Origin: Raillietiella orientalis
Lineage: Eukaryota
Length of the DNA: 64,000 nt
Direction: 5' to 3'
NCBI GenBank assembly: GCA_036172245.1
Contig: JAYWIR010000025.1
Location: 2,542,001-2,606,000, forward strand
Made by a program: the position numbers and the translations under genes. Shown here in pieces: positions 473 to 64,000 of the stretch (positions are counted from its first letter, which is position 1; the number at the start of each line of letters is the position of its first letter). Below the pieces are notes generated by a model. That model saw only the letters and a program-made list of their open reading frames with translations. It did not search any database and was not told the DNA's origin.

Positions 473-1250
473 TTTTTTTTTTTTTGGTTCGCTAAGCATT
501 CAAGAACCGTTCGCCTAGGGGCTCACGAAGCTCTTGACACTGTCCATGCCACCAGAGGTGTCAACTCGACAAGTTAGGGGTCATCCCGGACGGGGACCAC
601 CCTATGAATCCAGGAAGGCTCCGGAGGGAAGGAGTCCGTTCTTATTCTTGAGAGAGAAACCCCGAAGGGAATCACCACTTCTTCGTTCTCTCCTGAAAGA
701 CCATCCAGTTTGTGGGGTCGCTCCTCGTTCCTCTCCGAAGGGGGCCCCGGAAGGGATCCACTCCTGGAATTTCTTCTCCGGAGAGAACCCACAAGGGAAC
801 CGCTCCTTGCATCCTCCTCCTCCGAAGAGAACCCCTAAGGGACGCTTTCCGATTTCTCTCTGAAGGGAGGTTCCCCGAAGGGAACAGAGAGCTTCCAGAC
901 ACTCTGGAGAGGCAATCCCAATCCCACCGAGGGGGGTATCAACCAGCTCCATTGTCACAACCGTAGAGCAACCTCGATTGGACCGACCCCTTGATTCCCG
1001 GAATGACCCCGAAGGGTCAACTCCCGATCCTGGCCAGTCGATGGAGGCATCCAGCTTCCACCAGTGCCATCGCACCCGAGCCTACTGACCAACCAGCATC
1101 GTCCCACGGAAAGAGGGGGGAGGACTCGAAACCCACAACGCCCCATCCCGTTCTCGGCGTCGATCTTTTCCCCGGGTAGGAGTCGAAACTGCAACTCCTG
1201 GTGGCTCCATGGGAAGCCACACTGTCTCCAACGCAGACGACCACCGATAC
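473..1250 (-). mobile_element. Family B structured retro-element, copy B1 (poly(A)-tailed)
   Basis: Minus strand ends ...CTTAGCGAACC+A13 (T-run 473-485), the same terminus as copy B5. It is collinear by eye with 60830-61747 and 40220-40520. UUCG hairpins lie at 870-885 and 1004-1019. Weaker similarity to 40500-40900 extends to about 1570. Confidence 0.75.
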
Positions 1251-3879
1251 GACACGAGCGCCATCCGTCAAGACGAAAGAACACACGACGTACGCGGAAG
1301 AGAGTTTCTTGTCCTGTACGCGCAGAGAGCAACTAGCAGATGTCCAGTAGTTGAGATCACGGAACCTGAAGACGCGTTCCATGTCTTTGCCAACCGTGCG
1401 TGGAGGGACGGAAGCTCTCGTTACGGGAGAGCTATCCAGACGAAAAACCCGGATTCCGGCAGTTGACGCGGAGGAGATCAGCCGATCTAGAAGCTCAGCG
1501 GAGATCGATCTCTTGAGTTCTTGCTTCTGCCCTCGAACAGTCTACACGACGAGGAGCAGAGACTGAGAGCTTAAGCAGCTGAGAATTTCGAGTCCCTTGC
1601 AAAGCCGGGCATCGTCTCCTCTTCGAGACGGGGCTCATTCTGGTGAACGGTCGTCAAGAGAGGCTCACATGAAGCTGCGATCACTCCAGTAAGCAGTCAT
1701 CTCTAGATGAATCACCTGTCGCTTAGAGATTCAAGGAAGAGAGAGAGCAACCCGCCATCATCACGGGAACACCAGCGGAAGCACATCCACCTTGTGAGAT
1801 CACCGCCGAACGTTAGAGTGAATGGAGGCCCTTCACGTGTTGAACAGAGGAGTCCAGTCGTTTCTGTGCCTGTGACTCCCTACCTAGCTTGAGTCCAAAG
1901 GAAAAACACATGACGAGCTTGAAAAGAGGATCGACATCCTTTAAAGACTTCCAGAACGACACTTCCAGATCAATACTTCCAGGCAGAACAAACACAGCTT
2001 CTCCCCAGCCCTCTCCTCTCTCTTTTGATACCACGGTGGCAAGGAAGATAGTCAGGTTCTCGTATTATCCCATTCCTCTGCCAAGTTGGCATTCTGACGC
2101 TGAGGCAGATACGTGGAAACAGTGGGAAGTGGGGGCGGTAGGTGGGCCGACTTGAGCAGCACATGCAGCCAAGTGTTTTTGATGAGCACTCGCAACGCGA
2201 TTCAGTGGCTCACCCGCACCACTCCGTCCTTCTACAGACCCCAGCGCGAGAATGCAGCTTGGAGAGCATGCACGGGCGCGCGCACCAGAGAACAGACCTT
2301 CCTCCAAGATGCTCATTATCTGTTGTTAAGCGCCGCGCGACAAAGAAGCAGACGGCTCTCCTCTGAGGTACTTCCAGAACGCTGCTTGCAGAAGTTCCGA
2401 TTAGAGATCTGATCCGATACGAGCCACAGGAAGAGATGGTGCGTCCTCGAAACGACCTCGGAGCCACACAACTGTGGCACCCTCCCTCCCCATCCTCACG
2501 ACGGAAATGCCTGTTTTCACAGTATTGTCGTCTTGCTGAACGGGACAAGGAAAGAGAAATCTAACGGACGAGGTGGTGACTTGGGCTGCCAAACGTTTCG
2601 CAGAATCGGAGGAACCTCGGGAAAGCGCTCGCGGTTCCAGCCCACGGATCTGGAATGATCCGATTTCCGAGACTGCTGGAGGTTCCCTTTTCCCTCCCCC
2701 TTTTTTTGGATTGTTCGTTTGTCTTCTCTGAATTTCCAGCGCTTCTGAAGACCAGACTATCGTTGCGTGCGGTGGTGGATCAAATATTTCTTTGCATCAG
2801 CCAAACAGGAGGCTGAAGAACCGATCGATGGTATCCCGGACTGCACGCCAGCAAGGAATCGAAACGGAAATGAGCTCCAGGGACTGCAAAATGGTGGCTA
2901 CGGCATCGGCGCTGGGGAACAGGAATTGCCTCCAGCTAGGAAGACTTAAGCATGCCTCTTTCGGGAGCGGGATACTCTTGAGCACTCATTCTGGGCCAAG
3001 GTTCTTGGTGAAGCAGGGTGCAAGAGCGCGGCAAAGAGTACGTCCTTTCGCTTATTTTGGAAGAGGAATTTTCAGCAAAAATGCTGGAGCTGCAACGTCA
3101 AAACGCAGGAAGACTTGAACCGGACTGGAACGAGTGCACGCCGAAATGGAAGCGACAGTGGAATTTCTCTGTCACAGAATCCGAACTTCCGAGAGAAATT
3201 CTGTCTTTCTCAGACGCGAACTCGAAACCGTTGAAGAAGCACGAATGCACCTCCGAATGATGCCAGGAATCTTTTTAAGAGCATAGTGAGCGAAGAATCG
3301 CCTCCTGGATGCAGCGTCCAAAGTCCCAACCACATCGGGAAAGTAGTGGCAGTCGTTCGAGGATAACTTCTGTTTCTGATTCTCTCATCATAGCCGACCT
3401 TTCAGGATCTGAGACACTGTTCGTCGAAGTCTGGGCATTGTTTTCTTCTTCCTAATCCCTCGATCGAAACTCGAACATGTCGAGAGAAACCCCTTCAAGT
3501 CCATCTTCAAACTATTCTCGCTGATCCAAGGAAACCTAGGATGCTGTATGCGTGCTTACTCTTCGCCAAGTTGCAGATTCCCGAGCTCGCAAACGAAACT
3601 TTCGCGTGTAGAGAGTTCTTAATGGTCATGAAAATAGCAGAAGACCCTCGGGATATGGGTCCTGTGCAGGTTTCCGCAGCTTCCAGGGCTGCTCAAGTCT
3701 CACCATGTGATCCCATGAAGCTCATCTCGCACTTCCAGAGAGGGAGAAAACTCGACCAATTGTTTCAAGGATCAAGTTTTCTGCCGCATGTTCCTCTTCT
3801 GAAGAAGTAGGATGGAGATCATCAGCTCATGGGTTTGTCGCGTCCAAGAGAGATTAATGAGAGGGTAACAACCCTCTCA

Positions 3880-39563: not shown

Positions 39564-40220
39564 TTATTGGTGTTTTTCAATTTCCTGGATGGGGTGATCC
39601 TCATAAAGAGTTCCGACCAGCAGGTGGCACCTCTGTTCGGGCTGGCCTCTTCTCGCGGCATTCCATACAGCCGCCTCCTTTCCTTGAGTGCAGCAAGCGG
39701 TTGCTACGCACGCGGCGCGTAGCAGTGCTTCACGCACGACGAGGCGCTTGGCAACGCATCCTGGGATTGCACCCGGGGATCCGGAGGGCCGTTGCCAAAC
39801 GTTCCCAGAGGGAGGCCGGAGGACAGTCAAGAAAGGTGCAGTTCTCTCTTTCCCGCACGTCTCCCTCGGCACTTGCACTCCCCAGGGTCCAGTGGTGGAG
39901 GCGCGCTTTGCGCTATGCAGAGGTCCCCCAATGCAGCAGCAGCAGTGCCAATTCTTGCAGTGGTAGGTTAGGGGGATCAACAGATAGGTAAGTTGGGGGG
40001 AAGGAGTAGGGGACACCGGAATTGCTGTTCCGCTCCTGCGAACTCGGCAAGACGCTGGCGAACTCGTTGCCGGATCGTTCGAATGGGGGCCACAGGCAAG
40101 CCTTCCTCATGAAGGGGGTAGCGGTGCGGGTGACTCCTCGCTGGCGTTGGCTGCAGCTCCAGCGAGTAGCAGGCCGTGACGATGCCGCGGATGCTGCCGA
40201 AGCCTCAGTCACTGCAGTCC
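39564..40220 (-). mobile_element. Family A LINE fragment A2 (diverged ORF2 C-terminus)
   Basis: LLLLHWG... zf-RVT-like segment and ...VREALLRAACVATACC..., homologous to other A copies. No 3' UTR. Confidence 0.65.
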
Positions 40221-40600
40221 CTCCCGGGCGGGAAAGGCGGCTCCCTGTTCACCACCGGAAGGGGACCCCAAAGACACCCGCTCCTCGATTCCTGGAAGGA
40301 CCCCGAAAGATCAACTTCCGATCCCGGCCAATCGACGGGGCATCCGGGAATTTCCGGCTTCCTCCAGCGCCATGCTCGAAGGCCAACCAGCGTCATCCTG
40401 CGAGGAGGAGGGACTCGAAACCCACAACGCACCCCCATTTCTCGGAGGGTCGATCCTTCCCCGGGCGGGATTCGAACCCGCGACGCCCGGTGCCACCCGC
40501 GCGCAGAGAGACAGCAGCTGCCGACGCGGGCCAAGGCCGCGGACGCAGGCGCGCTTCGAGGGTTCGTTTCAGGCGTGCGTTCCTCCACTCGGCCGTCCTA
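40220..40600 (-). mobile_element. Family B copy B2 (tRNA-like region)
   Basis: Perfect T-arm/B-box GCGGGTTCGAATCCCGC at 40481-40465 and an A-box-like CGGCCGAGTGG at 40595-40585. Collinear with 990-1210 and 60830-61060. Confidence 0.7.
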
Positions 40601-42650: not shown

Positions 42651-42654
42651 GCTG

Positions 42655-44712
42655 CCACTTTGGAAGTGCGTCCAGAAGAACTGCGGCCTCTGCAGAATCT
42701 CCTACGCAAATCGCTGGGAGATCTCCTGCAGGATTGGGCGCAATGGTACCGGATAGCCATCACACCTCTTGCCCCCCTGGTCCACAGACTAATCACGCTG
42801 ATTCGCGAACGGGGCGGAGTGCCCAGCTCGTTCCGATCAGCAATAGTACGTCTCCTTCCGAAATCAGGAGACTTACGTAACGTAGGCAACTGGAGGCCCA
42901 TAACAATAGTGAACGCAGATGCGAAGTTGCTTGCCAAATTATGGGCTGAGCGACTGGGACGGGTGGCTGAATCCATGGTAAGTCCGGAGCAGACCTACGC
43001 TGTTCTCGGACGATCCATGGAGGCCAACCTGTTCCTCTCCAGAACATGGTGGCAGTTGCAACAGCGCGAAGCACAGACGGGTCAAGACCGGGATTCTCTG
43101 ACCAGGAAGGGGAAGGCCAAGGAAGAACAGATGCATCCGGGGCCCTCGCAGCCGCCGTCGATCTGCGTAAAGCTTTCGACTACGTCGACCAGGCACTCCT
43201 TGTGGAGCTCCTGGAACTCATGGGATTTCCGGCCGTCTTCTTGGCCTATCTGCGCTCCAGCTGGCGCTCCGCGTTAACATTTTTTTCAGCGACAGGCACG
43301 TGTACGGCATTCCGGTGCGGCGCAGAGTGAGGGAGGGTGATAGTGTGATCCCCCTGCTCTTCAGTATCTAATTGGAGTTGGTGCTGAGAGCATACAGGGA
43401 GACTCTGGAAACCCTGCCGAGCTCGTGTTCCGGCACGCCTGTCGTGTCGGCCTATGCAGACGATCTTCAGATCTTACTGCTGCTCCCCGGGTCCACTCCG
43501 GGTCCACCCTGGAGTCCACGCTCGAAGATTTCTTTGAGCTTCTGCGCCGCGGGACGGGTCTGGAGGTAAACAGGGTCAAGTCGTCCATCGTGGCAGTTTG
43601 TGCGGCATGGTCTGAAAGGCCGGACTGGATCCGCTTGGGGATCTTTACGGGCATGTAAATCAGATACATTGGTGTTCCGTTGGGGGACTTCTGCGTAGCA
43701 GAAGCCTGGTCCGACCGTCCCCAAAAGATGGAGTTGGTGATCGACCTGTTCGGGAAGGCACGTTTCACTTGCAGGAACGGGCCGCGGTGTGGAATGAGTT
43801 CGCGGCTCCCTTTCTTCTCCCCCTACTTTTTGTTTGCCCTGCCCCATCATCATCAAGAAAAGTACCGAGGGCCTCCTAAGAAAAGTCCTTTGGGGCACAG
43901 GGAGGTTCGTGTCCGTTTAAAAGACTGGTTGCGCGCTCCACGCAGGCATGGTGGAATGGGCCTCCTTACGTTGGCACATGGAGCAGCAGCTCCAATTACA
44001 AAGACTCGCTCTTGAGGCGAAGTTTTGGACAAGCCCCGGTGCACATCTGCACTCCTTCTCGCCAGTAGAGCGACTGGCTGCGCAGGATTGACTTCGATTC
44101 TCGTGGCCTATGATTGCAGTCTGAGGCGTTGTGGCCATCAGCTGCGCCAGATGGTTGCCCTGATGCAGGAGAACACCTGGATCTCCTGTTCCCTGCCAAC
44201 TGCACTGCCTGGCTTCAGGAGTCAGTCTCCGCATAGGGGCGGAAGACCCACAGCCAGAGCGAGGCGGGGCGTGTCTGCCTCCGGAGAGGGAGGCACGCTC
44301 GATATTCCCTGCAGGAGATCGTATGCAACTCACGCACACTGCTGTTGGTCCTGTTCACTCCCCTTGTCCCAGTGCCGTTCTCCGTTGAAAACGCTAGGGA
44401 CCGTGACCTCCCGACAAAGTGGGAAGCGTCCCATCCAAAGCAGGGAAAAACTTTTAAGCGCGTGGATAACTCGGCACCTCGCGGACTCTGATATCCCGAG
44501 TGTCCCGCCGAAAAGACTGTGGCGAGGATGCTGCTCACGATACCACCTGAGGAGGTGAAGTGGCCCCATGGTGTCGCGGTGGCACCCTTCCCCTCAAATG
44601 GCAAGAGATGCCGTTGCTATTGCTGCATTGGGGAATCCCATGCAGAGCACGCCTCTTCCATTGGACACGGGGCAGCGTCGATGTCCACTGTACAAAGTGC
44701 GGCGATAAGGGG
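42655..44712 (+). pseudogene. Decayed reverse transcriptase + zf-RVT (ORF2) of an L1/Tx1-clade non-LTR retrotransposon (copy A4)
   Basis: Ordered RT motifs across frameshifts: RLLPKSGDLRNVGNWRPITIVNADAKLLAK, VDLRKAFDYVD, VREGDSVIPLLF, SAYADDL (43453), GLEVNRVKS, IRYIGVPL, HGGMGL, then LLLHWGIPC...HCTKCG. Confidence 0.9.
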
Positions 44713-44850
44713 GAGCTTCCCAGGACGTGAGAGGAACGGAGTCCTTCCTCCGGGACTTTCCTGGATGCATAGGGTGGTTTCCTCCCAGGGTATCCCTTGA
44801 ATGAAAGTTGCGGAGAATCCCTGATGTGTCGAAGAAGGTAGCAAGACACC
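44712..44850 (+). mobile_element. Family B 3' fragment B3
   Basis: CGTGAGAGGAACGGA...TTCCTGGATGCATAGGG matches 58208-58250 and 61517-61560. Confidence 0.7.
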
Positions 44851-46236
44851 AGGACGGAAGCTCAGCTCCTCCGAGGCGGATGAGCAGTTCGCTTCCCGCG
44901 TGTGACAGACGAACAACCGGCCGCACGATCCCCATGAGACAGCTCAGAGGGCAGTGAAATCGTTGTCGCGTTTTGGAGCACCATTCTTTCTCCCGTGGGC
45001 AAACGGAATCGTAGAGGCGAAGGGAAATACGAAACGTGGCCCTCGCATCTTCGCGAGACGCTCCTCTTTCCTTCCTCAGGTTTGCTTTTCCTTTGGAGGG
45101 CAAAAAGGGAAGAATGAGACCCGCGGTGTCCACCCTATGGAACGTCGCTGGGGAAGCAGACTCGTCAGTTTATCAGCACCTCGACTCTTCCAATTGGTGC
45201 TGAAAGGGTACAGATAAACTCTGCTTCCCCCCGTCCCTGCATGCGGGTGACTTCCTTCTTCTGCCCATTGTGGAGGCGTACTCTTGAGCAGTTCTTCAAG
45301 CCCGTAGCTTATGGAGCGGAGGGTTGATAGGACATCGGTCATTCTCGTCGGATGATATGTGAGCTGCCTGCCAAGTGCCCGAAAAGGGTTTGTGTCAGTT
45401 TTATTCCCTTGGCCTCAGTGTTGCTCTCCTTCTGAGAATGATAGCGGTCTAACGGCTAGGTGGGAGGTTAACTGCGCTCAGAAAAGAGGTGCGAAAACAG
45501 TCAAGTGGTTCGATGACGACTTCGACGACTCAATGACTCTTCGACGCAATGACACCTCGTTTTGGTACCCAAGAACTGCTCTTGAGGAAAAGACGCGGTG
45601 ATACGCTCCTTGCACCAGACTTCCCGAGCAACCAGCGCTGTCACCCCTGGGCGGTGCGTTGAATCCCCCCAGGTTGCAGTTGGATAATTACTTTGTCTCT
45701 CAGGTCCGAAGAGCGTCTAGATGGAAGCTGTGAGGAAGCCCACACGACGGCCCTATCCGGCTTGAATGGATCCGTCCGGGCAACCGATACGAGACAGCCG
45801 ACACTTGCGGGGCCAACAGACACCGAGAGGACAGACCCAGGAGGAGGAAGCGCTGGCTAGGAAACATTCGTAGGTGTCGTTTTGCATGGACGCCACGACG
45901 GCACAGGCAAAGGACGATTTCTGGTAGACTTCCACTGGAAGGAGGCCAGAAGGAAGTGGTTTATTCCATCGTCATTCCTTCTAGTAAGCGCACTCCATTT
46001 TCAGGCGTCTGGTCTTCGTGGCAGACCGCGCCTGCGCTCTCACCAGATTCAAACAAACAACAAACATGAAAGAGAAAACGAACCAACGAGAAGTCGAAAG
46101 GTCCAGGTTCACGCAGACAAATCGGATGCAGGAGAGGGGGGGGGGAACAGGGAGGACTGTCCACACGTGTAAATCAGCGTCCACAGGTGCAGAGTGCAAG
46201 TCCACTTGGTGAAAGGTTCAGTTTCTTCCGCGGGCG

Positions 46237-49200: not shown

Positions 49201-52200
49201 TGCACACGGGAGGTGAGAACGCCAACTCTGTCAGGTGCGGGGAGCAGGAATCCCTCCCCCACCTGCTAGTGGATTGCGCTGCTCTCTGGCCCCTCTGGGA
49301 ACGTTTTGCTGCGACCCTAGGAACCCCTGGCGGCAACTTCAGGGGCCATATCAAGCCCTTCTTCGTTTGCGACTCCCTTCGGACAGCGGTCTCGCTAGCA
49401 GCCCTCTGCTGCCTACGGGGGATCGTCGCTGTCTTGAGCAACGCAAGAGGAGGATACAGAGGGATGGATGCCATCCATTTCACTGTCCGCTTCATCAGGA
49501 TGGCAACGCGATGGTCCCACCTGGACAGGACTATCCAGCAAGACCTTGCCGGCATCCTACAGAGGATGCACAGAACCGCCACCAACAGACAGTGATCCCT
49601 TCCGTCCCCTTCCCCCAAAAGTATTTTTATTTTTTATTTTGTTTCTTTTTTTTCTTTTTGTTTGCCCCCTCCCCTCTGCTGCCGTGGTGCACCGCGCCGG
49701 TCTGCGAACCGGTGACCCGGCAGGCTTCCATTAAATTGTGCCTGGTTGGACCTTTGGTCCAACCATAGTTCTCAGGAAATGTTTATTTTTTACTGGAATA
49801 AATGCCTCCCCGCACCCGGGTGATAATCGACGGTGGATCACCAGCGCGTGACCCGTCGCCTCAGGAATGGGAGAGGATGTGCATATCGAGGAGCGACCTG
49901 CTTGTAGACCGCGTTGCCCTGCGACCGTTGTGGGGATGCTTTGCAGCGGCGACCCTCCGGACCCCATGCGACGACCCCAGGGACGCAATGATGAGACCTC
50001 TCTTGGTACGCGACGAAATGCCGCCGGCCGCATTCCGAGCAGCTCTTTTGCCGCCGACGCGGGATCGTGGCGGCGTGGAGCGACGACGACGGTGGAGGAA
50101 GCGGCAGAGACGCCATCCATTTCACCCTACGTTTTTTACGGAGGGAAACGAGACGGCCCCACCTGGAGAGTACCAGAGAACAAATTTCCAGCATCCTGGA
50201 GAGGATGCAGAGGACGGTCCCCAGCAGGCAGTTATCCCTTCCCGTGCCCCCTCCCCCTCCGAGTCTATTACTATTTATATGTATTTTTTTTTCTTTTTCC
50301 CCTCTGCTGTCGAGGCCATCCTCTCTGGTCTGAGCACGGGATGCCCGGCAAGCTGTGTAAAGAGCAGAACTTGAAAGGGCCAACGGCCCTATCATATTGT
50401 AATGTTTATTGCTTCCAATAAACGCCCCGGCGGTGCCAGACGAACAGCGAGGAGTGTACCACCCGGCGCAAGCCTAGCCCCTCCCTTGACGGGGTTCGGG
50501 AACGGCGTGCGTGCGGAAAGCGATTCCCGGCGTGCTGCAGGAGAGAGGTGCCCCTGTCTCCCTGTGGTACGTGGGAAAGACAGTGGTGCGTGGTCGCTGC
50601 GGGGCATCTGGACATACGATGCCCCTCCGTCGAGGGCCGGCGATGCGGCCGGAGGGTCCACAGCATAAAAACGGAAAAAGAAAAAAAAACATGGAAGCAG
50701 AAGACGGAGGTGCAGGCAGCCAAGCACTCGCGGAGCCCGCTCAGCAGGTCGAGGAAAGGTGAGGAGACGGTGGACGAAGTGTGGGAGAGAGACAAAAGGA
50801 ACAAGAAGGCTAAACTGAACGAAGGCTGGAAGAGGAGGACTCGCGCGGTTCTCCCCGGTGACAGGGTGACTGTTGTGTGCGATGCGTTCTGTGGTAACCC
50901 AGCGCGAATGCAAACAGGGCATAAAAGCTTGAGAGCTTCTTCCATAGATGTCACTGGTGCAGTGCGGTTCACTGAACGGAATGACAAGCAGGAAAAACAG
51001 TACAGGGATCAGAAGACCACTGAGCTGAGGTTTTGAAACGTGAATGGGAATCTACCAAACCAGCAAACGTGGTTATAGCTTCTAGAGTGCCTCCTGCCTG
51101 GTTCCATGATTCCCATCGGTGTGCGTAGCAGGGGTCACGTGTAGCACTCACGAATGCTCCGAAACGTGCTCTTGACTCCCACTTGCGACCACTGTGATCT
51201 TTTCGATATTTAAATAGGGAAGATAGCATTATAAGAAGGAAGCCGTCCATCGAAATACATGGATGGTTAGCTATGGGACTGTCCATTCTGGTGTGTGTGG
51301 TCAACGCAGCTCCGGGAACTTATTCTGCCTACAGTCACGTGCTCAAAAAGTGAATCTCCTTGGAAGAATTACAGATGAGTGTGTGCGGATGCACATTTTC
51401 CTTTCCTTTTTTGTTCGAGAGCTGCTTTCCACTTTGCTCGTTTTGAACTTTGTGGAAAAAGGAGTGTGTGGACAAAAGAATTGCGACTCCTCGTCAAAAA
51501 TAAGGTATGGTGCATATATCCTCTTGGAACCCGGCGCTGCAGTCATTAAAATAGCATCTTTTTGATGTTTCTTAGTAATAACACCTTCTGATGATTTGAA
51601 AGTATCTCATGCTTCCTCTTCTTCTTAGATAATGTAGCCTTTTCACTAACGGTTTACGTCAAAGGAGCTATGGAGAGATTTGTGGAATCAGCTCTTCACA
51701 TACAACACTGTGAAAACATGGAATTCATCAAAATAGTATCGAAATTTTGGAACCGATGGCTTCGTGAAAGACGATGTGACCTTCGGAACGGCCGAGTCCA
51801 TGCTTCGACACTCCTTAGGAAGCCTTCTGGATTTCGAAATTGCTAACATCTACCTCACCTGAAATGACCCAGCGGCACGGTCACGTTCATCCACCAATGC
51901 GTGGATCGCGCGAATTCCGGTTCCTCTGCATTCGATTCTTCCAGTTTGGAAGTGCTGTTGAATGTCTTACCATGGAAACAGAGACCAGACCTCTTGAAAA
52001 TGCAAGGTCTCCCCAAACTCAGTCATCAAGGTGACACCCAAACCTTTAGTGACTCTATCGATCCAAACATTCTATAATTGTTTCTTCACGAAAAGAAAGA
52101 AGACAGCCCTCTTAGAAGAACGGAGGTCAACTGGAGGCAAACGTTCGTGGACCAATAAGTAATCACAAGAATCATTCAATTCACATGCCTGAGAATTTAA

Positions 52201-55364: not shown

Positions 55365-57871
55365 TGGGCATCGGCAAAAAGTGCGCCTGAATTTCCGGCT
55401 TCGTTCTCCCGCCAGTGTCCACCACGGTGGGGGATCTGCTAGGAGGACACTAGAAACGGGACTTGCCGCCCGAGAGGAACGCCTCGCGATCCAGGAAGGG
55501 GTGCCGTAAATGGGGGGGCGAGGTCTTTGAGGGTGCTGCAGGTGTCAGAAACCCCAAACAGCCAATGGAATCTCCGGTGCGTCTTATCGTTCGGAGCGCC
55601 TTCCGCCGGGAGCGTGCCGCGGTGTCCCGTCCACGATTTTCAGTTACTTCGGGGAAGACGAAAAGAAAAAAACGGAGGAAACTCTCTGTGCGTATTTTAC
55701 TTTCTTTTTAGTTTTAAGCTTTTTGGCGTTGCGTTTATAGGTTGCGGCTTTTGTGGCCGTAAAGGTCGCCGTGTCTTTCACGACGCGTGTGCACGATCGC
55801 GTGAGGTCTGAACCATCCGCTGCTGCTATCGTCCCAGAAACTGTGCCGCCAGATACGTTGTTCGGGTGGCTCGGGATCCGCTGTAGAGCCCCCCCCCCTT
55901 CTCCTTCCTGACCGGAATTGCATGGCGGAATCCCCACGGTTACTCCGCTCGGCGGAACTTCGAGACGGGACTGGGTCCTGCGTTCCATCTCTGTTTTCTT
56001 CGCCTGGTCTGCGGCACGGGTGGAGACGCAGGCGACTCTTCCGCAGACCTGCACCCTGCGCACGTCAGGTTCGTTTCGACACGCGGCGAAGTGAATTCCT
56101 CATCCCCTCCTCCTCTTCCAGGGGCTGACCCGTGCGCTTGAGAAAGCGTCCTCGGTCACTCGGAACGCTCAGAGGGTCTCCGCTGCTGGTGGTTCGAGTT
56201 GGTGAATCTCCGCGATGGAGCGTCCCCTTTCACGTGCGCTCGCCCTCACCCTGGAACTTCGGTTGGCATTGCTCGCAACTCACGAAGGAAACAACAAAGA
56301 AACGATAATGGCGGAGTCGCATTCACCCATCCAGCACCCGCATCCGAAATCTTCCAAGCTCGAAGACCGAAGCCAAGAGAAGCTAAGAAGCAGAGAACCA
56401 GTTGGTTAGGGAGAAAACCGGCCTCCTTCCAGGGCAAGCCGGTTGCTCTGAATCTCCCTAAGTCCGGAGAGAGCAGGGCTGATGTGGAGAGGCGTAAGCA
56501 AGAAGTCTGCATCTGCATCTTCGTGCTTTGGATGTTTCGGAAGAGATATCTCTGACCCCAAAGGCATACGAAGAGATAAGAGAAACGGTCAGAAGTGGCC
56601 TAATAGATACAGACGTTCTTCATCACGAGCGCAGAGAAGCACAAGAGCTCTCCACTACTGAACAGTGGGCAGAACAAGCTGCACCCTGAACTGGAAACAG
56701 CAACAGAACTTGGAAGTGGGACGTCTTTAAGAGAAGGCATGAATGAAGATGAAAATGGGGAGGGAGATCACACGTGCCAACCCGTGTGTTTCCTAGATTC
56801 CAAGTTTCTGTAGAGTCTGGTTGAAGGTCTCTTGGCGCTCTCATCTACGCTCTGTTTACGGGGAGGCGCTCTCCAGTGTGAGGTTCTGTGTCTCGACAGC
56901 TTTTCTTCCTCGTGACCGGTGGCTGTTCGCACTGGTGGTCGGGCGTTCCTGAGTCACCACGGAAACTGGGGTGGGAACGCGTGGAAATGCGGCAACCCCA
57001 TGCATCTCGCAAAAACGCTGGTCGAAAAAAAAGCGAAGGGAAAGAGGTTTTTTCTGATGCAGGTGGAAGATTTTTGGAGTCTTTCCTGCTTACGTCGTTC
57101 TTCTGGAATCGCTCCCGTCCCAGGAATCGTGCGCGAGTGGTCTTCATCTGGGATGGCGGGCACACATTGGAAAAAAAAAAGAACTGATGCGGGCAACCTT
57201 ACTTTCCCGAAACCCTGTCTTGGATTTCCTATCTCCTTGCTTTGTTATCCACTTGTAAAATCATCAATGAGCATTTTCAGGAGGTCGCGACCCTTTCAGG
57301 TCCGGTCAAGAGCACTTGGGAAGCAGCACAGGTGGGGAAACGCGCGCGAAGAGAAGACCAGGATGCGCGTTCGTTCGCACCCATGACGACACTTGCAGTG
57401 CTTGACGGCCTCCGAACGCAAGGATAATCGTTAATGAGCAAGACGTCGTTAAAGAGTCGTCGAAGATCTTCACTCCGAAGGACCCTTCCCTCGACGCAAC
57501 CTTTCCACGTTCTCATCGGCATGCTGATAATTTTCACATGGACAATTCTTTCTTTATGTAACCGCTGCTGTGCAGCTGAGGCGTTCTCGACCTCCACCCT
57601 TTCTTTTTCATGAAACAGTTGGTTCCAATATCGGTTTCCCACAGGACCCTTCTGTTACCATGGTTGCCAAAACCACCGCTACGGTAATGAGATGAATAAA
57701 GTTGCTTTAAGGCCAATCGATCCGGGATAAAGGTTCTAACAAATGACAGAGTTGTTCCCCTTCTGATAGCAAGGACGAGAGCATACGTCTTCCAGCAAGA
57801 CGCGGAGTCTGGGCACATGGCTGAAGCAAGAGGATATGTACGTAGTATTTCCCCTCTGGTTGTGAATGAGT

Positions 57872-58345
57872 GGACCCCCCACTCCGGGGGCACCCTCCGC
57901 GTCGTACTGATGGAGTAGGTGTGTCGCCACCACCTCCCCAAGAGTGCAGAGAAGCGAGCCGATCCCTCCGGAGAAGCTGCGTCCTTCTGAATTTCGGAAG
58001 CGTCCCTTCGAGGTTCTCTTCAGAGGAGTAAACAGGAGCGGATCCCTTGCGGGGGATCCCTCCGGAAAAGAAATTCCAGAATCGGATCCTTTACGGGTTC
58101 CCTTCAGAGAAGAAAGAATGGAGCGGACCCGCCTTCCGGGGGGGGGGGTTTCCAGAGAGAATAAGGTCCTTCGGAGACAACCAGGGTGGAGGTGATCCCT
58201 CCCCAGGCGTGAGAGGAACGGACTTCGAGGCCTTCCTGGATTCATAGGGCGGACCCCTCTCGGGGTACTCCCTATCTTGAAGAATTACCCACCCTCGGGT
58301 GGCGTGGAACCGTGTCGAAGAACTGCGAAGACAGAAAAGAAGGAT
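57872..58345 (+). mobile_element. Family B internal/3' fragment B4
   Basis: Collinear with 61158-61640 (CCTTCTGAATTTCGGAAGC, CTTCGGAGACAACCAGGGTGG, CCTTCCTGGATTCA, TGAAGAATTAC). Confidence 0.8.
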
Positions 58346-60813
58346 TCCCATCATCAATAAGAGAAGGATTTCCTCCTCTGATTCTCCTGTATTACATGGA
58401 GCCCTACTGTGCAGCCGCTAACGTAAACTGTGGCAGCTGGTCGTAACAGCGCAGAATCTCAAGAATGTGCAGATATTCTTGTGAGTTTCCACTGAATGTG
58501 ATTTTCCATGTACGTAATCATGAAATGAATATCACACACTGCCAGTTTGGGATGTTGGCGTGCTCAGTTCAGAGCTTGCTTTCGTTTTTTTTTTTTTAGA
58601 GGCTAGACGCAGCAGCAGCAGGTAGAAGAAGAGCCAAATGCCAGAGTAGATGATATGAGAGAGATTTTTCTGTTTGCAGCTACATGTTTTTGTTTGTTCG
58701 TTTGGTTGGTTGGTTTCAACGAACTGCCTTTTGAGAATCACCGAAACAAACCCTCCCCGAGAATCATTCTATCTGCATCTGCGTGCTACGAGTTTGACAC
58801 TCTTCAAAGCGGATGGACGAAGAAATAGACGGCGTGTGCATTTTCCTCCTTTTTCATTCTAAAGGTGTTGTGTTTGGCGTGTTTTTAGGAGTCTGTGCGC
58901 CTCGGAAGTCGGTCAAGAGCGAGCTTGGCTCTGTGTTAATGCGACGTATTTCTTGTTCCACGACCTTTAATCAGATGCCTCCGAATTTCCCACAAGAGAT
59001 TCAGAGTAGGTAATCCATGGATTCAAACACCACTCCTGATTCTATGAAGATCATCATCAGACTTGAACTCACGTATTTAATCCTTGAATAATCATTAGAC
59101 TTATACCTGCACGTATTTAATTTGCATTAATTAGGGATCTTATTATTCATGATCCGTGTTTCGGAATATCTTAAGCAGTACTGACTGCTGCTTTCAGAGT
59201 GAGGCGGTTCCTTCCCTGTTTCGCTCCTCGATTTCTTCATCGTTTAGGCCTCGTGCGTTGTACCACAGTCAAGTCCGCCACGCTTGAGTCTTTGCCACAG
59301 TTCTGGAGTCGGTGCTACGCCTAGGTCTATGGGAAACACTGTGTTGAGTTCAAATGGACAAGTCGATCAGTTTCCGCAACGCCTTCCTCCTCGGATTTTG
59401 GCGTGACCCCCATTGAGACTTGGATTGGGCGTGTTTTCCAGGGGAACATTTTCACGGTGGAAACTCTCCCAGATATCAGATCAAAGATGACATCTCGCAA
59501 ACAAATCACACACCAAAAAAAAAAAAAAAACAATCAATTACATGAATCACACTTCTTCACTTTAGCGTTCTTTCCACCAGGAAAACAACTCGCTTGAGAA
59601 CACGCATGCTAGAAATCTCTCGCTGACCCCATCCGAAGCGAGAAGATATCAAAGGTGAACTTGGAAGAGAGCGACCAAAAACGAAAAATCGAAAATTATC
59701 GAGGATGCGACATCCAAGATGGATGAGAGCGACTTTGATTCTGCAACGCAAACCACGTACTTGAGAACAAAATCCAAAAATTGAAAGATTCCCATCTTCC
59801 AAGCAAGGGCGGAGAAAAAGAAGTTGACACCAACGTGGAGTAGGGTGTGGTCCTTCTGCCACGGAACCGAGGTGAGTCTTAGCCATCCATTTAGGGCCAT
59901 CTGAGTCGTCCACTTGACGAATTCGTTTCATCGTTCACACTATTTACGTATTTTGAGAACCTCCTATGAAATCAATTGAGTGCATTAATTTTATATTTTG
60001 GGCCATTATTGGTGCATTTCGTGGCGCAAAGGCTGTATTTCAACAGAGTCGTTAAAGCCGACGGTTTGAAAAACTTCAGAACTCTCTTGAGAATTCGCAT
60101 TGACACTTCCTGATAGCGGAGGTCCCCATCCCGATATGGGACGGAAAATTCGGAGGTAGGAATGTTCGGGAATCCGAAGCAAGGAAATTCACCGAAGGAG
60201 CGCACCCTTCTCCGGTTGAGCCGAGACCCGTTGCACGGAGACACAGGAGGGGAAAGCCACCGTGCTGAAGCCACCAGCGCGAAGAATGACCTCCCTCAAC
60301 TTCTGGACCGAAGCCACGAGTGGTGTCGTCAAAACCTAGAGAATCCGTCTGCAGAAGCTAATCGGAGACAACGGAGGAAGGGAGAGGAGGGGGGATGAAA
60401 ACAAAAGGTCTATCGAGGGCGAGCCACGAAGAGACTACGAGATGGCAGAAATCCAACAAACAGCAACCGAAACGAAAGGTAGCTGGGGAACAAGGTGAAC
60501 GCACGGATCGATGTCACAGCTGACCTACAAGAGGCCGGTGGGAACGACCAGCATCGAACTCGAATGTCCTCTTCAGCTTATACGACGCCTTGTCAGGCTC
60601 TCTTCAGCACACAACTTGAAAATGAGACAAGGAAAGGAGGTGCTTAATGCGGACGCATTCGCAGGGCGGGCTGGGAACAGGGATGGCGCCACACGCAGGT
60701 TCTCTTCGTCCACTGCAGAGAGACGAGCGGCTTCCCTTGACTCGGAAATCGAATCCAAGCTATCGTTCCCCAAATGAGGGCGGGCGGTATCGGTTTCCGA
60801 AAGGCAATGGAGG

Positions 60814-61747
60814 CTTTGTGGTTAAGGCTTCCGCGCGTGGCACCATGCGTCGCGGGTTCGATTACTTGGGCAGATAACTTGACGCCACTGCGTCGTTTGG
60901 GTTCCGAGTTTCTCCTGCAATGGCGCTGGTTGGCCGAGACATTCGGGCGTGGCCCCGGCGGTGGATAAAGCCGGCGGCCTGCCGATGAAGGCCGGAACAA
61001 TGGGAGTCGACCTTCGGGTCCTCCCAGGAATAAAGGAGTGGGGAGTTCCCCCTCCTGTGTGCAAAGGAGAGTGGGCCCTCGTCACCGGGGGGACCGCCTC
61101 CGGTTTCAAGATGGAGCAGGAGCCCTCACGGGCACCTCTCCAGTCGTTCAAAGGAACGGACCCCCCTGTTGGGGGGTCCCTCCGAGTCGTCGCCTCTTCA
61201 GAGTGTGTACAAAGGAAAGAAGCAAAGCGAGAGCGATTCCCTGCGGGAAGCTGCAGCGCCCCTTCTGAATTTCGGAAGCACCCCTGTGGGGGTTGTCTTC
61301 AGAGGAGTGAATAAAGGAGCGGATCCTTTCCGGGTTCCCTTCGGAGAAGTTGAAATGGAGAGGACCACCACCCCTCAAGGGGAGGGGGTGTCCCTCCGGA
61401 GAGAATGAGGAAGGAGAGTTCCCTTCGGGGTTCCCCTTCGGAGACAACCAGGGTGGGAGGTGAGATCCCCCCGTCCGGGAGGGATCCCCCCCGTCCGGGG
61501 GGGATCCCTCCCCAAGCGTGAGAGGAACGGACTCCGAGCCCTTCCTGGATTCAATAGGGCGGACCCCATCCCGGGGTGCCCCCTATCCTGAAGAATATTA
61601 CACTGAAGAATTACACGCCCCCCCCTGCGGGTTGCCGCGGACAGGCGTGGAAACAAAACAGTGTTAATGTTTAAAAAGAGCCACGCGCGCCGCGAGGCAC
61701 GCGACCGGCTCTGAGGTACTTAGCGAACCAAAAAAAAAAAAAAAAAA
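60814..61747 (+). mobile_element. Family B retro-element copy B5 (SINE-like, ~930 bp) with TSD and poly(A)
   Basis: Direct repeat (AAA)GGCAATGGAGG at 60800-60813 and 61745-61758. It has an A18 tail after CTTAGCGAACC and a tRNA-like head GTGGTTAAGGC...GCGGGTTCGATT. Confidence 0.85.
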
Positions 61748-62001
61748 GGCAATGGAGGACACGCCTCTTTGACGACCTCAACCTCGGGTGAGGGCACCTG
61801 TATGCCCTCAGCGGATTTTGTGTCCATTCTTTTCTTCGTTTCGTCTTAAACAGGAATGAAGAGAGGATCGCTGTTAGCGACCAAAGCGAGGTACCAAATC
61901 ATGGCATGCTGCGATGCCATCTTCTGGTGCTCAAGTTTCCGTTGCTATGGAAACATCTCCAAGGCTCCCATCACAAGAGAAAGACTTCGAGGCATTTCCC
62001 T

Positions 62002-62002
<1 letters not shown>

Positions 62003-62048
<46 letters not shown>
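62003..62048. repeat. Poly(T) tract (~46 nt)
   Basis: Uninterrupted T run. It may be the minus-strand tail of a retro-insertion, but no TSD was found. Confidence 0.8.
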
Positions 62049-62051
<3 letters not shown>

Positions 62052-64000
62052 GAGTATTCCAGACGCAGAAGCAATTCCTGGGGGATGCATCGGCCAGATC
62101 GCTTCCTTTTGCGGTGGACAACAAAACAAACAGCTTTGATGGAGACCATTAGAAAATCTGCATACATAAATTTTCATTTCACAAGTATCTTTCTTCACGT
62201 TGGTTGAATTATACCCCCCTCGGGAGGTATCAACCAACCAACGAGATGTCTTTTTCTTTTCTTTGCTCTTTTTCTTGACTTTTTTTTCTTTTTATCTTCT
62301 CTTATTTATATCTTTCTCATCATAACATATTTTGAGGAGTGTACGGCGGAGGACAGAGAAGGTAAATCGAAATGCAGCAAGAGAAGAGAAGTGTTTGTCG
62401 TAACCATTGGGTGTCGTCTTCTTTCAAAGGTCTCTCTCTGTGCACAAGGTGAACAAGCAAAGCCCGCAAATGCACGACAAGGAAAGGGTCTGGGGGGAGA
62501 TTCATAGGGGATGTACTTGAAAAGAAATCCCCCAACTGATTCTTTCGTTCACCAAGGTGTCATTCGTCAAACCATTCCAATTAAGTTGTGTCTATCATCG
62601 TCGTATAAGAAGCGGTTGCTAAAAAAAAGAAAAAAAAAGAAATGCACGTTTCAATATATGAATTTATAAGTGTATTACTTTCGAGACCTTCGAGGATTCG
62701 TAAACGTCCTCATCTTTCCCATTAGAAAGCAGAGGACCGAGTAATACTCAAGGTGCCTTCAGGATGCCATCCATATTTGAAATTTCACTTACATAATGAG
62801 GCGAGATCGGATTTTCTATTTTATTACTGCGTTCATTCATTTTTGTTTCCATTTGAAATTTATTCTTGGTAAGTTTTCTTTTTGGACAGAAAAGAAAACT
62901 CTCTGGGCAGCGAAATTCGTTAATTGCATCGAATTATTTTATAATTATTCATAAAGGGAACTTGGAATGAAAAGTGGCGCTCCACTTACCACTTCCACGA
63001 ACCTCATCCAGCACTCCCTACTCTTCAGCAAGTGCAATTTGGAGAAACTCATCTTCCGACCTGCACCTCACATTCGTGAAACCTGCGTTCTTCTTTGCAT
63101 TCGAGTACAGCGATCTCGCGACTGTGGTCATTAAAGATTCACATCGTTTCTCTGTGGTAGCCCTTTGCCATGGGAACCGAAGGCAAACACATACTTCCCT
63201 CTTTTCCTTGCAGTGCTTGACTCACACTGGGGGCTAATCGACGGAAAACAATGCTCAGATGAGTGTAGCCCAACACTGCGGTGCATGGGTGTGTCAACAA
63301 GCAGAGATTCTGAACGGCCTTGAAAGCGCTGACGAACGGCACCAGAAGAGAGAGGTGAGAAAGTAGGAAAGGGGGAAGAACCAGCACCCCTGAAATGCCA
63401 GGGAGATCTCCAAAAACTTTTGGGCGCCACATCTACGTATACAATGATCCCTGGTGTGCAGATGACGATGCATGTACATCTCATCGTTCCTGTTCACATG
63501 GGGCAGAGGTGCCTCGCAAGAGAAAAATCACTTCTACCATAAAATCCAAGCATCTGATTCAATCATCAGCTGTGCATTCGATTTTTTTCCACTTTCCAGC
63601 ACGAGGACATTCCCTGCCCGAATCCTCGTCCCGTTCGAGATGAACTCTGGACTACTGGTTTGCACCCGGTCACGTCGGGACCTTTCTTTCAAAACTAAAT
63701 GAACTACAAATCAGAGAACCTTCAGTGGCCCCGGAGTGCAAGAAGAAAACAACAAAAAAAGTCCACTAGCCACCGGCCCGCGGCCGAGCTTTTAGGAAAG
63801 TCCGGAACAAGAAGGTAGGGACAATGGTCTTTGGTTTTATTCGTTTCTTTCTTTCTAGAAGCGGCTGTGTATCGCGGTGATCTCCTTGATGACCTCTGCT
63901 TGCAGGTGAGGCCACCTCGTAGCCGTTCGTCCTCATCAAGGCGGCTGCCATGCTGGTGGCCTCCCGTCTCTGCGAAAGAGACTCCAACGCGGAGAGGAAT

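What the first reader, a model, noticed from the sequence alone, without database searches (positions are those of the whole stretch)
60800..61758. GC-rich, UUCG-tetraloop-studded, poly(A)-tailed retro-element with covarying stems (family B)
Seen: five copies (473-1250 -, 40220-40600 -, 44712-44850 +, 57872-58345 +, 60814-61747 +). B5 has an 11-14-bp TSD and an A18 tail. B1 and B5 share the end CTTAGCGAACC(A)n, preceded by a hairpin. The sense strand carries repeated (C)TTCGG hairpins. One hairpin varies while keeping its pairing: GGGAG-tc-GACC-TTCG-GGTC-CTCCC (61002-61025), GGAAG-tt-GATCT-TTCG-GGGTC-CTTCC (B2) and GGGAG-t-TGACCC-TTCG-GGGTCA-TTCC (B1). That is a G-C/A-U swap plus a symmetric stem-length change. 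I found no conserved reading frame. Established: cUUCGg is an exceptionally stable RNA tetraloop, and a TSD plus poly(A) indicates target-primed reverse transcription. Inference: a long, highly structured non-coding RNA is being retrotransposed. It could be an unusually large SINE, a retroposed cellular ncRNA, or a structured 3' domain of a longer element.
Basis: partly seen in the sequence, partly recalled or inferred. Interest (0 to 1): 0.75.

Follow-up and report, generated by a model that had tools for sequence, protein, structure and literature searches.

The report
Long hairpin-rich SINE-like retroposon
This is a recent insertion of a 0.9-kb non-coding jumping element (a very long SINE-type retroposon) in an arthropod genome; its many small hairpins are real, but there is little sign that they are a conserved functional RNA shape.

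Summary
The observation largely holds. 60814-61747 (+) is a 916-nt GC-rich element plus an A18 tail. It is flanked by an 11-14-bp target-site duplication. Four diverged copies or fragments lie elsewhere in the window.

It is non-coding and matches no Rfam family. Its head is degenerate and tRNA-like, with a B-box-like motif. One older copy keeps a perfect T arm and is called tRNA-Ser-like by ARAGORN at a relaxed threshold. No TTTT occurs on the sense strand of any copy. A 955-nt contig from another sequencing run covers the unit from end to end.

Best reading: a very long SINE-type retroposon copied by an L1/Tx1-like LINE.

The hairpins are real in the young copy (fold z about -6 to -7), but both strands fold equally well. 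The older copies fold no better than shuffles. The (C)TTCGG motifs sit in a diverged ~43-nt tandem module. Double substitutions keep pairing in 26 of 71 cases, about the chance rate.

No partner LINE was found in the window.

This scan had already noted the same family in other windows of this genome.

The parts
60800..60813 (+). 5' copy of the target-site duplication (certain part 60803-60813, GGCAATGGAGG; the three A's before it are ambiguous with the tail)
60814..61729 (+). B5: the 916-nt element body. It is non-coding, 61% G+C and has no TTTT on the sense strand
   Evidence: A 955-nt contig of run X1 covers 60815-61718
60814..60870 (+). Degenerate tRNA-like head. It has a D-loop-like GTGGTTAAGGC at 60818-60828 and a B-box-like GGTTCGATTAC at 60855-60865
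   Evidence: It is 90% identical over 30 nt to the B2 head. At 60862 every laid contig that covers the place reads A (1 of 1 in X1, 7 of 7 in X2). There is no tRNA call at default thresholds
61002..61025 (+). Hairpin with a C(UUCG)G loop, kept in B1 and B2
   Evidence: 11 pairs, 2 compensatory, 2 broken cells
61243..61463 (+). Central array of diverged bulged-hairpin units of about 42-43 nt; most (C)TTCGG motifs lie here
   Evidence: The lag-42 match is 0.382 against a shuffle 95th percentile of 0.376, so it is marginal in B5. It is clear in B1: lags 43 and 86 give 0.397 and 0.443 against 0.348
61467..61512 (+). A 20-nt unit repeated 2.3 times, forming a perfect 16-bp palindromic hairpin (61477-61512). 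It is absent from B1 and B4
   Evidence: The X1 contig lacks 19 nt at 61464
61497..61596 (+). Most conserved module of the family (89% identical to B4 over 100 nt; also present in B1 and B3)
   Evidence: 20 predicted pairs, 0 compensatory
61677..61712 (+). 3'-terminal stem-loop, shared in shape with B1
   Evidence: 9 pairs, 3 changed on one side, 0 compensatory
61719..61729 (+). Terminal 11-mer CTTAGCGAACC, identical in B1 and B5
61730..61747 (+). A18 tail
61748..61758 (+). 3' copy of the target-site duplication
473..1260 (-). B1: a near-full-length copy of another subfamily, with an A13 tail at 473-485 and no TSD found
40207..40550 (-). B2: the 5' third of the element only. It has a perfect T arm GCGGGTTCGAATCCCGC. 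ARAGORN at 90% threshold calls 40458-40550 tRNA-Ser(gct)-like
44700..44866 (+). B3: a fragment of the conserved module. It directly abuts an antisense LINE fragment at 44583-44706
57845..58346 (+). B4: a 5'-truncated copy (model positions 225-770 of 813). Its tail has decayed

Best explanation
B5 is a young, unit-length copy of a dispersed, non-coding, non-autonomous retroposon family with SINE architecture. That architecture is a degenerate tRNA-like head with an internal B box, a 0.85-kb GC-rich body, and a conserved 3' stem-loop plus 11-nt end followed by poly(A).

Proposed mechanism:
- RNA polymerase III starts at or near the element's first base and reads through a body that lacks T4 terminators into the templated A tract (inferred).
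- The tailed RNA is taken in trans by the reverse transcriptase/endonuclease of an L1/Tx1-type LINE of this genome (inferred).
- The RNA is copied at a nick whose T-rich 3' end (...CCTTT) pairs with the A tail. This gives the 11-14-bp duplication (the TSD and tail are shown; the rest is inferred).

The body hairpins come largely from a duplicated ~43-nt bulged-hairpin module and from recent local duplications. They are most likely a by-product of how the body grew, or at most a modest aid to RNA stability, and not a conserved tertiary fold. The host is a pancrustacean arthropod.
For: Insertion and unit:
- TSD plus A18 tail.
- Five copies at 58-65% identity; two have the same 3' 11-mer and A tails.
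- X1 contig record 1 (955 nt) covers 60815-61718 and ends at the element's 5' end. X2 record 3 fits from 60811 and then runs on unlike the window.

Non-coding:
- Stops in all frames, open runs within shuffle expectation, no Pfam hit.

Head:
- B-box-like motif in B5 and a perfect 17-nt T arm in B2.
- ARAGORN at 90% threshold makes 2 calls in the whole window, one of them on the B2 head.
- The only E. coli matches to the B2 head are tRNA-Asp genes: 8 of 8 records, 27 nt, 92.6% identity, E 0.6.

Pol III compatibility:
- TTTT occurs 0 times on the sense strand of all five copies. Expected counts are 3.3, 2.9, 1.0, 1.3 and 0.3; P is 0.046 for B5 alone and 0.075 for B1.

LINE machinery in the window:
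- A decayed L1-like RT at 42129-44555 matches PDB LINE-1 ORF2p at E 5e-7.
- There are many other poly(A)-tailed insertions.

Modular body:
- 43/86-nt periodicity.
- A 20-nt tandem unit.
- Unit-sized differences in the X1 contig.
Against: - No tRNA is called at default thresholds by ARAGORN or Rfam in any head.
- The A box is weak.
- The relaxed ARAGORN model on B2 starts about 40 nt upstream of where B5 homology begins. The young subfamily may therefore lack part of the head.
- At 916 nt without the tail, the element exceeds the 75-662-nt range of the 175 families in SINEBase and its '<700 bp' wording, though not its working limit of <1 kb (PMC3531059, passages of sections 4 and 9).
- Pol III transcription, genome copy number and the partner LINE were not shown. 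No LINE in the window shares the tail.
- The absence of TTTT is not independent among homologous copies.
Confidence: 0.7

Rival explanations
1. The fold itself is under selection. Active source copies must keep an array of about 25 hairpins, including C(UUCG)G loops and the 3' stem-loop, because the RNA needs them for stability, for Pol III transcript handling, or to be recognised by a 'stringent' partner reverse transcriptase.
For: - B5 folds far better than shuffles: global z -7.35 and local z -5.6.
- Hairpin 61002-61025 is kept in 3 of 3 copies that cover it, with 2 compensatory pairs.
- The count of structure pairs gives 24 pairs with changes on both sides, against 14.5 +/- 2.6 in shuffles (0 of 500 reach it) and 6-15 in slid controls.
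- B5 and B4 keep more pairs than a substitution null (z 3.3 and 2.6; 14 compensatory against 7.1 expected, p 0.009).
- The 3' stem-loop and 11-mer are conserved between copies that are 58% identical overall. Stem-loops before the tail are typical of stringent-type LINE/SINE pairs, including L1-clade pairs with poly(A) (PMC3747384, passages of sections 4.3-4.4).
Against: - The antisense strand folds as well as the sense strand: z -6.09 and -5.96.
- B1, B4, B2 and B3 give z -1.5, -1.4, +0.9 and +0.4. This is inside the range of other GC-rich DNA here (-3.4 to +0.3).
- B1 still has an A13 tail, so a less hairpin-rich subfamily was also mobile.
- 10 of 12 ordered copy comparisons show no excess of kept pairs (p 0.20-0.85).
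- With B5 as reference, 26 of 71 double changes keep pairing, against 27.0 expected.
- The conserved module and the 3' hairpin show 0 compensatory pairs.
- The structure used was derived from B5, which the tool warns inflates it.
- Only 2-4 sequences cover any pair.
Confidence: 0.2
2. It is a Pol II-transcribed non-autonomous retroposon, either a LINE deletion derivative or repeated retrocopies of a long non-coding RNA, and not a Pol III SINE.
For: - At 0.92 kb it is long for a Pol III unit and exceeds all SINEBase family lengths.
- The tRNA-likeness of the head fails default detectors.
- L1-type enzymes copy any poly(A) RNA (PMC3747384, section 1.5 passage).
Against: - No AATAAA or ATTAAA lies in the last 40 nt before the tail in B5 or B1 (by eye).
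- The A tail is part of copies from different subfamilies.
- There is no TTTT on the sense strand.
- A T arm or B box sits at the 5' end in two subfamilies.
- There is no similarity to the LINE fragments of the window.
Confidence: 0.12
3. It is the 3' domain (UTR) of a longer LINE, seen here only as 5'-truncated copies.
For: - B3 and B4 are 5'-truncated.
- B3 lies about 150 nt downstream of the last open stretch of a decayed L1-like ORF2, on the same strand.
Against: - 44583-44706, directly before B3, is an antisense fragment of the LINE family, so B3 is not continuous with that ORF.
- The B5 5' end is fixed by the TSD and by two contigs from other runs.
- B1 and B2 align up to that point and carry the tRNA-like head.
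- No RT or endonuclease similarity lies upstream of any copy.
Confidence: 0.05
4. The copies are retropseudogenes of a cellular structured RNA, such as an rRNA expansion segment, 7SK, or RNase P/MRP.
For: GC-rich hairpins with UUCG loops resemble rRNA-type structure (resemblance only).
Against: - No Rfam family reaches its gathering score anywhere in the window.
- In E-value mode, the best matches on B5, B1 and B2 are far below gathering. An example is che1 at 27.9 against 54.1 bits, on the wrong strand. None is rRNA, 7SK, RNase P/MRP or tRNA.
- The copies fall into subfamilies that share their own tail and module, which is the SINE pattern and not that of pseudogenes (criterion from PMC3531059 section 4).
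Confidence: 0.03

Closest known systems
[quoted passage not shown]
   Same: It has the head-body-tail build, with a B box or T arm at the 5' end. It is non-coding and dispersed, falls into subfamilies, and has an A tail with a TSD. It also has 5'-truncated copies and a more conserved internal module.
   Different: At 916 nt without the tail it is longer than SINEBase's 75-662 nt. The head is too degenerate for tRNA detectors. The body is a tandem array of diverged ~43-nt bulged hairpins. Copy number and Pol III transcription were not shown.
Stringent-type L1-clade LINE/SINE pairs with a 3' stem-loop before poly(A) (plant 'monocot 1a' L1 with its SINEs; Chlamydomonas SINEX-3_CR/L1-1_CR), as reviewed by Ohshima 2013 (PMC3747384, passages read)
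   Same: A stem-loop followed by a short conserved single-stranded stretch and poly(A), kept between diverged subfamilies.
   Different: No LINE with the same 3' end was found, since only this window could be searched. The stem shows only one-sided (G-U) changes between the two copies and no compensatory pairs.
Alu and B1/B2-type SINEs mobilised by L1 through poly(A) ('relaxed' recognition; PMC3747384 section 1.5 passage)
   Same: A pure A tail, a TSD of 11-14 bp, and a T-rich priming end at the nick.
   Different: The head is not 7SL-derived, the element is three to six times longer, and its 3' end just before the tail is conserved.
Earlier notes of this scan on the same genome (e1-7589810, e1-7394382, e1-7591677, e1-7591973, e1-7591926)
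   Same: They describe the same kind of 0.75-1.1-kb tRNA-headed, hairpin-unit, SINE-like repeat and reach the same overall verdict.
   Different: Those notes concern other loci. A sequence look-up found no indexed stretch like B5 or like its module, so family identity with them is inferred from their descriptions only.

Membership tests
SINE (SINEBase working definition, PMC3531059 section 4) | Short interspersed, non-tandem repeat: <1 kb in the working criterion, '<700 bp' in the general definition | tested here: inconclusive
   At 916 nt without the tail, it meets <1 kb but exceeds 700 bp and the 75-662-nt range of the 175 families. It is dispersed, with 5 places in 64 kb.
SINE (SINEBase working definition, PMC3531059 section 4) | [quoted passage not shown] | not testable with these tools
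   No genome is held. There are 5 copies in the window. Contigs of two other runs carry the element, but contig depth is not a copy number.
SINE (SINEBase working definition, PMC3531059 section 4) | At least 60% identity to a tRNA (or 5S or 7SL RNA) over at least 60 nt | tested here: inconclusive
   No eukaryotic tRNA bank was at hand. ARAGORN at default thresholds gives 0 calls. The Rfam tRNA model gives no hit at E<=10 on the three heads. ARAGORN at 90% threshold gives 2 calls in the window, 1 of them on the B2 head. The E. coli search gives only a 27-nt tRNA-Asp T-arm match at E 0.6.
SINE (SINEBase working definition, PMC3531059 section 4) | Internal Pol III promoter (A and B boxes) and Pol III transcription | tested here: inconclusive
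   A B-box-like motif lies at 60855-60865 and a perfect T arm is present in B2. The A box is weak. No TTTT occurs on the sense strand of the 5 copies. Transcription was not tested. SINEBase itself treats the boxes as an indication only.
SINE (SINEBase working definition, PMC3531059 section 4) | Non-autonomous: no coding capacity | tested here: met
   There are 5-8 stops per sense frame in B5. The longest open run is 143 aa, against a shuffle mean of 130 and a 95th percentile of 205. There are no Pfam hits.
SINE (SINEBase working definition, PMC3531059 section 4) | Simple-repeat tail and signs of LINE-mediated insertion (TSD) | tested here: met
   A18 tail and 11-14-bp TSD in B5. A13 tail in B1.
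SINE with a LINE-derived 3' region (stringent type) | 3' end shared with a partner LINE | tested here: not met
   In this window the tail 15-mer occurs only in B1 and B5. None of the other 17 A-runs of 10 or more has a similar upstream sequence (by eye). The profile search finds nothing in the LINE fragments. The whole genome was not searchable.
5'-truncated LINE copy | Continuity with LINE coding sequence or UTR; variable 5' ends | tested here: not met
   The 5' end is defined. There is no RT or endonuclease upstream. B3 abuts an antisense LINE fragment.
Known structured RNA families (Rfam 15: rRNA, 7SK, RNase P/MRP, ribozymes, tRNA) | Covariance-model match at or above the gathering score | tested here: not met
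   There are 0 matches at gathering score in the window. Only sub-threshold matches appear on B5, B1 and B2.

The most novel reading that the evidence does not exclude
A Pol III-type SINE of more than 0.9 kb, longer than any family listed in SINEBase. Its active source copies keep a conserved 3' stem-loop plus 11-nt end that serves as a specific handle for a stringent L1/Tx1-like partner. Its array of near-perfect hairpins is maintained in the source lineage and decays only in dead copies, because it is needed to carry so long an uncapped transcript through to reverse transcription.
Probability: 0.15. Interest if true: 0.45.

Novelty: new member of a known kind. Interest (0 to 1): 0.27.

Why it matters
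If the reading is right, the element is an ordinary genomic parasite and matters mainly for annotation. It is a long, GC-rich SINE-type family, probably undescribed, in an unannotated arthropod genome, and it could be mistaken for a structured RNA gene.

Two points carry some wider interest. Its length stretches the usual SINE definition and raises the question of how Pol III, if it is Pol III, handles a 0.9-kb unit. Its 3' stem-loop and 11-mer are conserved between subfamilies that are 58% identical. That would make the family a test case for specific ('stringent') template recognition by a poly(A)-ending L1/Tx1-type LINE in an animal.

Tried and rejected
- **Whole-genome search.** No genome is held for this window, so there is no genome-wide copy set, consensus or R-scape analysis.
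- **Metagenome scan.** A scan with a 19-nt stretch of the conserved module gave 1 locus (L001). It is a chance match with no flanking similarity.
- **Look-ups in earlier findings by sequence.** B5 and the module gave 0 windows.
- **Sequencing runs.** Two holders with small word shares were listed, and no RNA holder was listed. Nothing can be said on expression. The kind of run X1 is not on record.
- **Laid contigs.** The flanks of B5 had no cover in either run. I draw nothing from that.
- **B3 as the 3' UTR of the L1-like element at 42129-44555.** Rejected. 44583-44706 is an antisense LINE fragment. A Cys/His-rich stretch that I first took for the ORF2 zinc knuckle lies inside that antisense fragment.
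- **Shared breakpoint of B2 and B4 (a LINE landing site inside the SINE, a lead from earlier notes).** Rejected. The two fragments overlap by about 65 nt.
- **Self-BLAST for internal repeats.** It found only the palindrome in B5 and one 12-mer in B1. The module array shows up only as periodicity.
- **Relaxed ARAGORN calls on B5.** The call at 60788-60878 (85% threshold) reaches 26 nt into the flank, so I discount it. The call at 59243-59332 shows no T-loop motif by eye.
- **Pfam on 11 ORFs around B5, B4 and B1.** No hits.
- **Taxon from SURF6.** Only 4 weak hits, the best at 39% identity. The Sex-lethal homologue was more useful.
- **First z-score script.** It timed out and was repeated with 30 shuffles.
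- **Literature.** Three full-text searches listed no paper on a tRNA-headed hairpin-array SINE of about 0.9 kb. I saw listings only, and the host species is unknown, so this is weak evidence that the family is undescribed. Dfam, Repbase and SINEBase banks were not available.
Full report
**The object**

The window is eukaryotic. AT-rich genic stretches (31-39% G+C) alternate with GC-rich repeat islands. An exon at 22284-22814 encodes a Sex-lethal homologue. It is 60-65% identical to insect proteins and 59-60% identical to decapod proteins. A SURF6 exon lies at 12067-12711. The host is therefore a pancrustacean arthropod with no close annotated relative. No whole genome is held, so everything below rests on this window plus contigs of two coded public runs.

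At 60814-61747 lies a 916-nt, 61% G+C element followed by A18. GGCAATGGAGG directly precedes the element and directly follows the tail. The nick implied on the other strand ends in ...CCTTT, which can pair with an A tail (inference).

**Copies**

BLASTN and a family-profile nhmmer search find exactly five places.
- B5: the flagged copy at 60814-61747 (+).
- B1 (473 to about 1260, -): near full length, with an A13 tail and no TSD.
- B2 (40207-40507, perhaps to 40550, -): the 5' third only.
- B4 (57845-58346, +): 5'-truncated, with a decayed tail.
- B3 (44700-44866, +): a fragment of the most conserved module.

Identity to B5 over aligned columns is only 57-65%. It is mosaic, with four better-conserved blocks:
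- The head around the B box is 90% identical over 30 nt between B5 and B2.
- A module at 61497-61596 is 89% identical to B4.
- The last 67 nt are 75% identical to B1.
- The terminal 11-mer is identical in B1 and B5. The 15-mer including four A's occurs nowhere else in the window.

**Unit length and 5' end**

In run X1, one 955-nt contig covers 60815-61718 and ends at the element's first bases. In run X2, a 222-nt contig fits from 60811 inward and then runs on for 61 letters unlike the window. With the TSD, this fixes the 5' end of the young subfamily.

B1 and B2 align up to that point and may reach 25-40 nt further. The two are weakly similar to each other there, and the relaxed tRNA model on B2 starts at 40550.

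The X1 contig differs from B5 by unit-sized changes. It lacks 19 nt at 61464, and it has a back-step over 61318-61349 with 11 other letters.

**Not coding, not a known RNA**

- Every sense frame of B5 has 5-8 stops.
- The longest open runs on either strand (99-158 aa) lie within shuffle expectation (mean 130, 95th percentile 205).
- The three longest ORFs over B5 and B1 have no Pfam hit.
- Rfam gives nothing at gathering scores in the window. On B5, B1 and B2 it gives only far sub-threshold matches, none of them to rRNA, 7SK, RNase P/MRP or tRNA.

**Head**

B5 begins with a D-loop-like GTGGTTAAGGC (60818-60828) and has GGTTCGATTAC at 60855-60865. Every laid contig that covers 60862 reads A there, which gives the usual GGTTCGAA of a B box. 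The B-box consensus is recalled, not taken from a call.

B2 keeps a perfect T arm, GCGGG-TTCGAAT-CCCGC.

ARAGORN finds no tRNA at default thresholds. Relaxing its threshold gave these numbers of calls in the whole window, both strands:

| Threshold |
|---|
| 95% |
| 90% |
| 85% |
| 80% |

One of the two calls at 90% is the B2 head (40458-40550), as a class-II tRNA-Ser(gct)-like fold.

Against 28 Gb of E. coli genomes, the B2 head matches only tRNA-Asp genes: 8 of 8 records, 27 nt, E 0.6.

A tRNA-related origin is therefore likely but not proven. The SINEBase criterion of 60% identity over 60 nt could not be tested.

**Pol III compatibility**

TTTT is absent from the sense strand of all five copies. 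Expected counts are 3.3, 2.9, 1.0, 1.3 and 0.3, and P is 0.046 for B5 alone. AAAA occurs 3 times in B5. I see no AATAAA or ATTAAA in the last 40 nt before either tail. The copies are homologous, so these counts are not independent.

**The hairpins**

B5 folds into about 26 local hairpins and folds much better than shuffles. The global MFE is -445 against -389 +/- 7.6 kcal/mol, z -7.35. With pairs limited to a 50-nt span, z is -5.6.

Four results argue against a conserved functional fold.
1. The antisense strand does as well: z -6.09 and -5.96.
2. The other copies do not stand out. B1 gives -1.5, B4 -1.4, B2 +0.9 and B3 +0.4. LINE and other GC-rich controls give -3.4 to +0.3. B1 still has a clean A13 tail, so a subfamily with far fewer hairpins was also mobile.
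3. The motifs are not independent. CTTCGG is enriched (4 against 0.40 in B5, 5 against 0.44 in B1), and TTCG favours the sense strand (7:1, 8:3, 5:1, 4:2). However, the central body is a diverged tandem array. B1 shows match peaks at lags 43 and 86 (0.397 and 0.443 against a 95th percentile of 0.348). In B5 the lag-42 peak is marginal. B5 has also recently grown a 20-nt x 2.3 repeat that forms a perfect 16-bp palindrome, which B1 and B4 lack.
4. Only 1 of the 7 TTCG in B5 caps a stem of 4 bp or more.

**Covariation**

The cited hairpin (61002-61025) is kept in all three copies that cover it. It has 11 pairs, 2 with changes on both sides (G-C / G-U / A-U, and U-A / C-G), and 2 broken cells.

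Element-wide, I took each copy's own local fold, projected it on another copy through a MAFFT L-INS-i alignment, and compared the result with a null. The null draws each base from the observed substitution table.
- 10 of 12 ordered comparisons show no excess of kept pairs (p 0.20-0.85).
- Only B5 to B4 and B4 to B5 do (z 3.3 and 2.6).
- With B5 as reference, 26 of 71 double changes keep pairing, against 27.0 expected.

The tool count on alignment A1, with the B5 structure, gives 78.6% of cells paired against 76.1% in shuffles. It gives 24 pairs with changes on both sides, against 14.5 +/- 2.6 in shuffles (0 of 500 reach it) and 6-15 in slid controls. That is an excess. However, the shuffles break relatedness, only 2-4 sequences cover any pair, and the structure comes from one of the rows. 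The tool warns about both of these biases.

The conserved module (20 pairs) and the 3' stem-loop (9 pairs) show no compensatory change.

The alignments at about 60% identity are uncertain, and that works against finding a signal. My verdict is that a few hairpins are conserved, with no convincing element-wide covariation from five copies.

**Surroundings and partner**

- A decayed L1-like ORF2 lies at 42129-44555 (+). It gives a weak RVT_1 hit and matches PDB LINE-1 ORF2p at E 5e-7.
- B3 lies just downstream on the same strand. The 124 nt directly before it are an antisense fragment of the same LINE family, so B3 is not that LINE's UTR.
- The window has 17 other A-runs of 10 or more. Several end recognisable insertions with unrelated 3' sequences. 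Poly(A)-dependent retroposition is therefore common here.
- No LINE in the window shares the SINE tail.
- The conserved stem-loop plus 11-mer before the tail is the pattern described for stringent-type LINE/SINE pairs. These include L1-clade pairs that end in poly(A) (PMC3747384, passages of sections 4.3-4.4). This is a lead, not a finding.

**Comparison and novelty**

[quoted passage not shown] The element is longer than any of the 175 SINEBase families (75-662 nt) but falls under SINEBase's working limit of 1 kb.

Earlier notes of this scan describe 0.75-1.1-kb tRNA-headed hairpin-unit SINE-like repeats in other windows of the same genome and reach the same verdict. I retested the periodicity, the hairpin statistics and the taxon, and I agree with them.

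I rate the element a new member of a known kind. It is real, tidy and unusually long, and nothing shows a new kind of RNA.

Noticed in passing
window 62004-62400 (-): Another retroposon end lies about 250 nt from B5. It has an A45 tail (read as T45 at 62004-62048 on the + strand) with its body to the right. The stretch 62175-62348 is covered by many contigs of run X2 and one contig of run X1, so it is a separate repeat family.
   Followed up: partly
window 42129-44706: A decayed L1-like LINE reads in one frame over 42129-44555 with a few stops and has RT motifs. It is followed at 44583-44706 by an antisense fragment of the same LINE family (homologous to 42235-42354 and 19050-19173). That fragment directly abuts SINE fragment B3. 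This is a nest like the LINE-in-LINE and LINE-at-SINE cases noted elsewhere in this genome.
   Followed up: partly
window 18153-19645 and 48703-49787; also 42005-42270: Long inverted matches (70-77% over 187-280 nt) lie between GC-rich islands. They are LINE-family fragments in opposite orientation about 30 kb apart.
   Followed up: no
window 59243-59530 (+): ARAGORN at 90% threshold calls a tRNA-Gly-like fold at 59243-59332. An A16 tail follows at 59515-59530. I see no T-loop motif, so the tRNA call is probably false, but the A16 run may end another short retroposon.
   Followed up: partly
window 61318-61349 and 61464-61483: The unit-length contig of run X1 differs from B5 by a back-step duplication over 61318-61349 and by lacking 19 nt at 61464. 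Hairpin units are gained and lost between close copies.
   Followed up: partly
window 3879-4076 (+): Two tandem copies of a 94-nt unit at 94% identity, spaced 104 nt apart.
   Followed up: no
window 22284-22814 (+) and 12067-12711 (+): Host gene exons: a Sex-lethal homologue (two RRMs, 60-65% identical to insect proteins) and SURF6. They place the window in a pancrustacean arthropod.
   Followed up: partly
window 20055-20075, 13375-13394 (-), 14863-14879 (-), 46644-46660: Several further pure A-runs of 17-21 nt have unrelated upstream sequences. They are probably tails of other retroposed copies.
   Followed up: no
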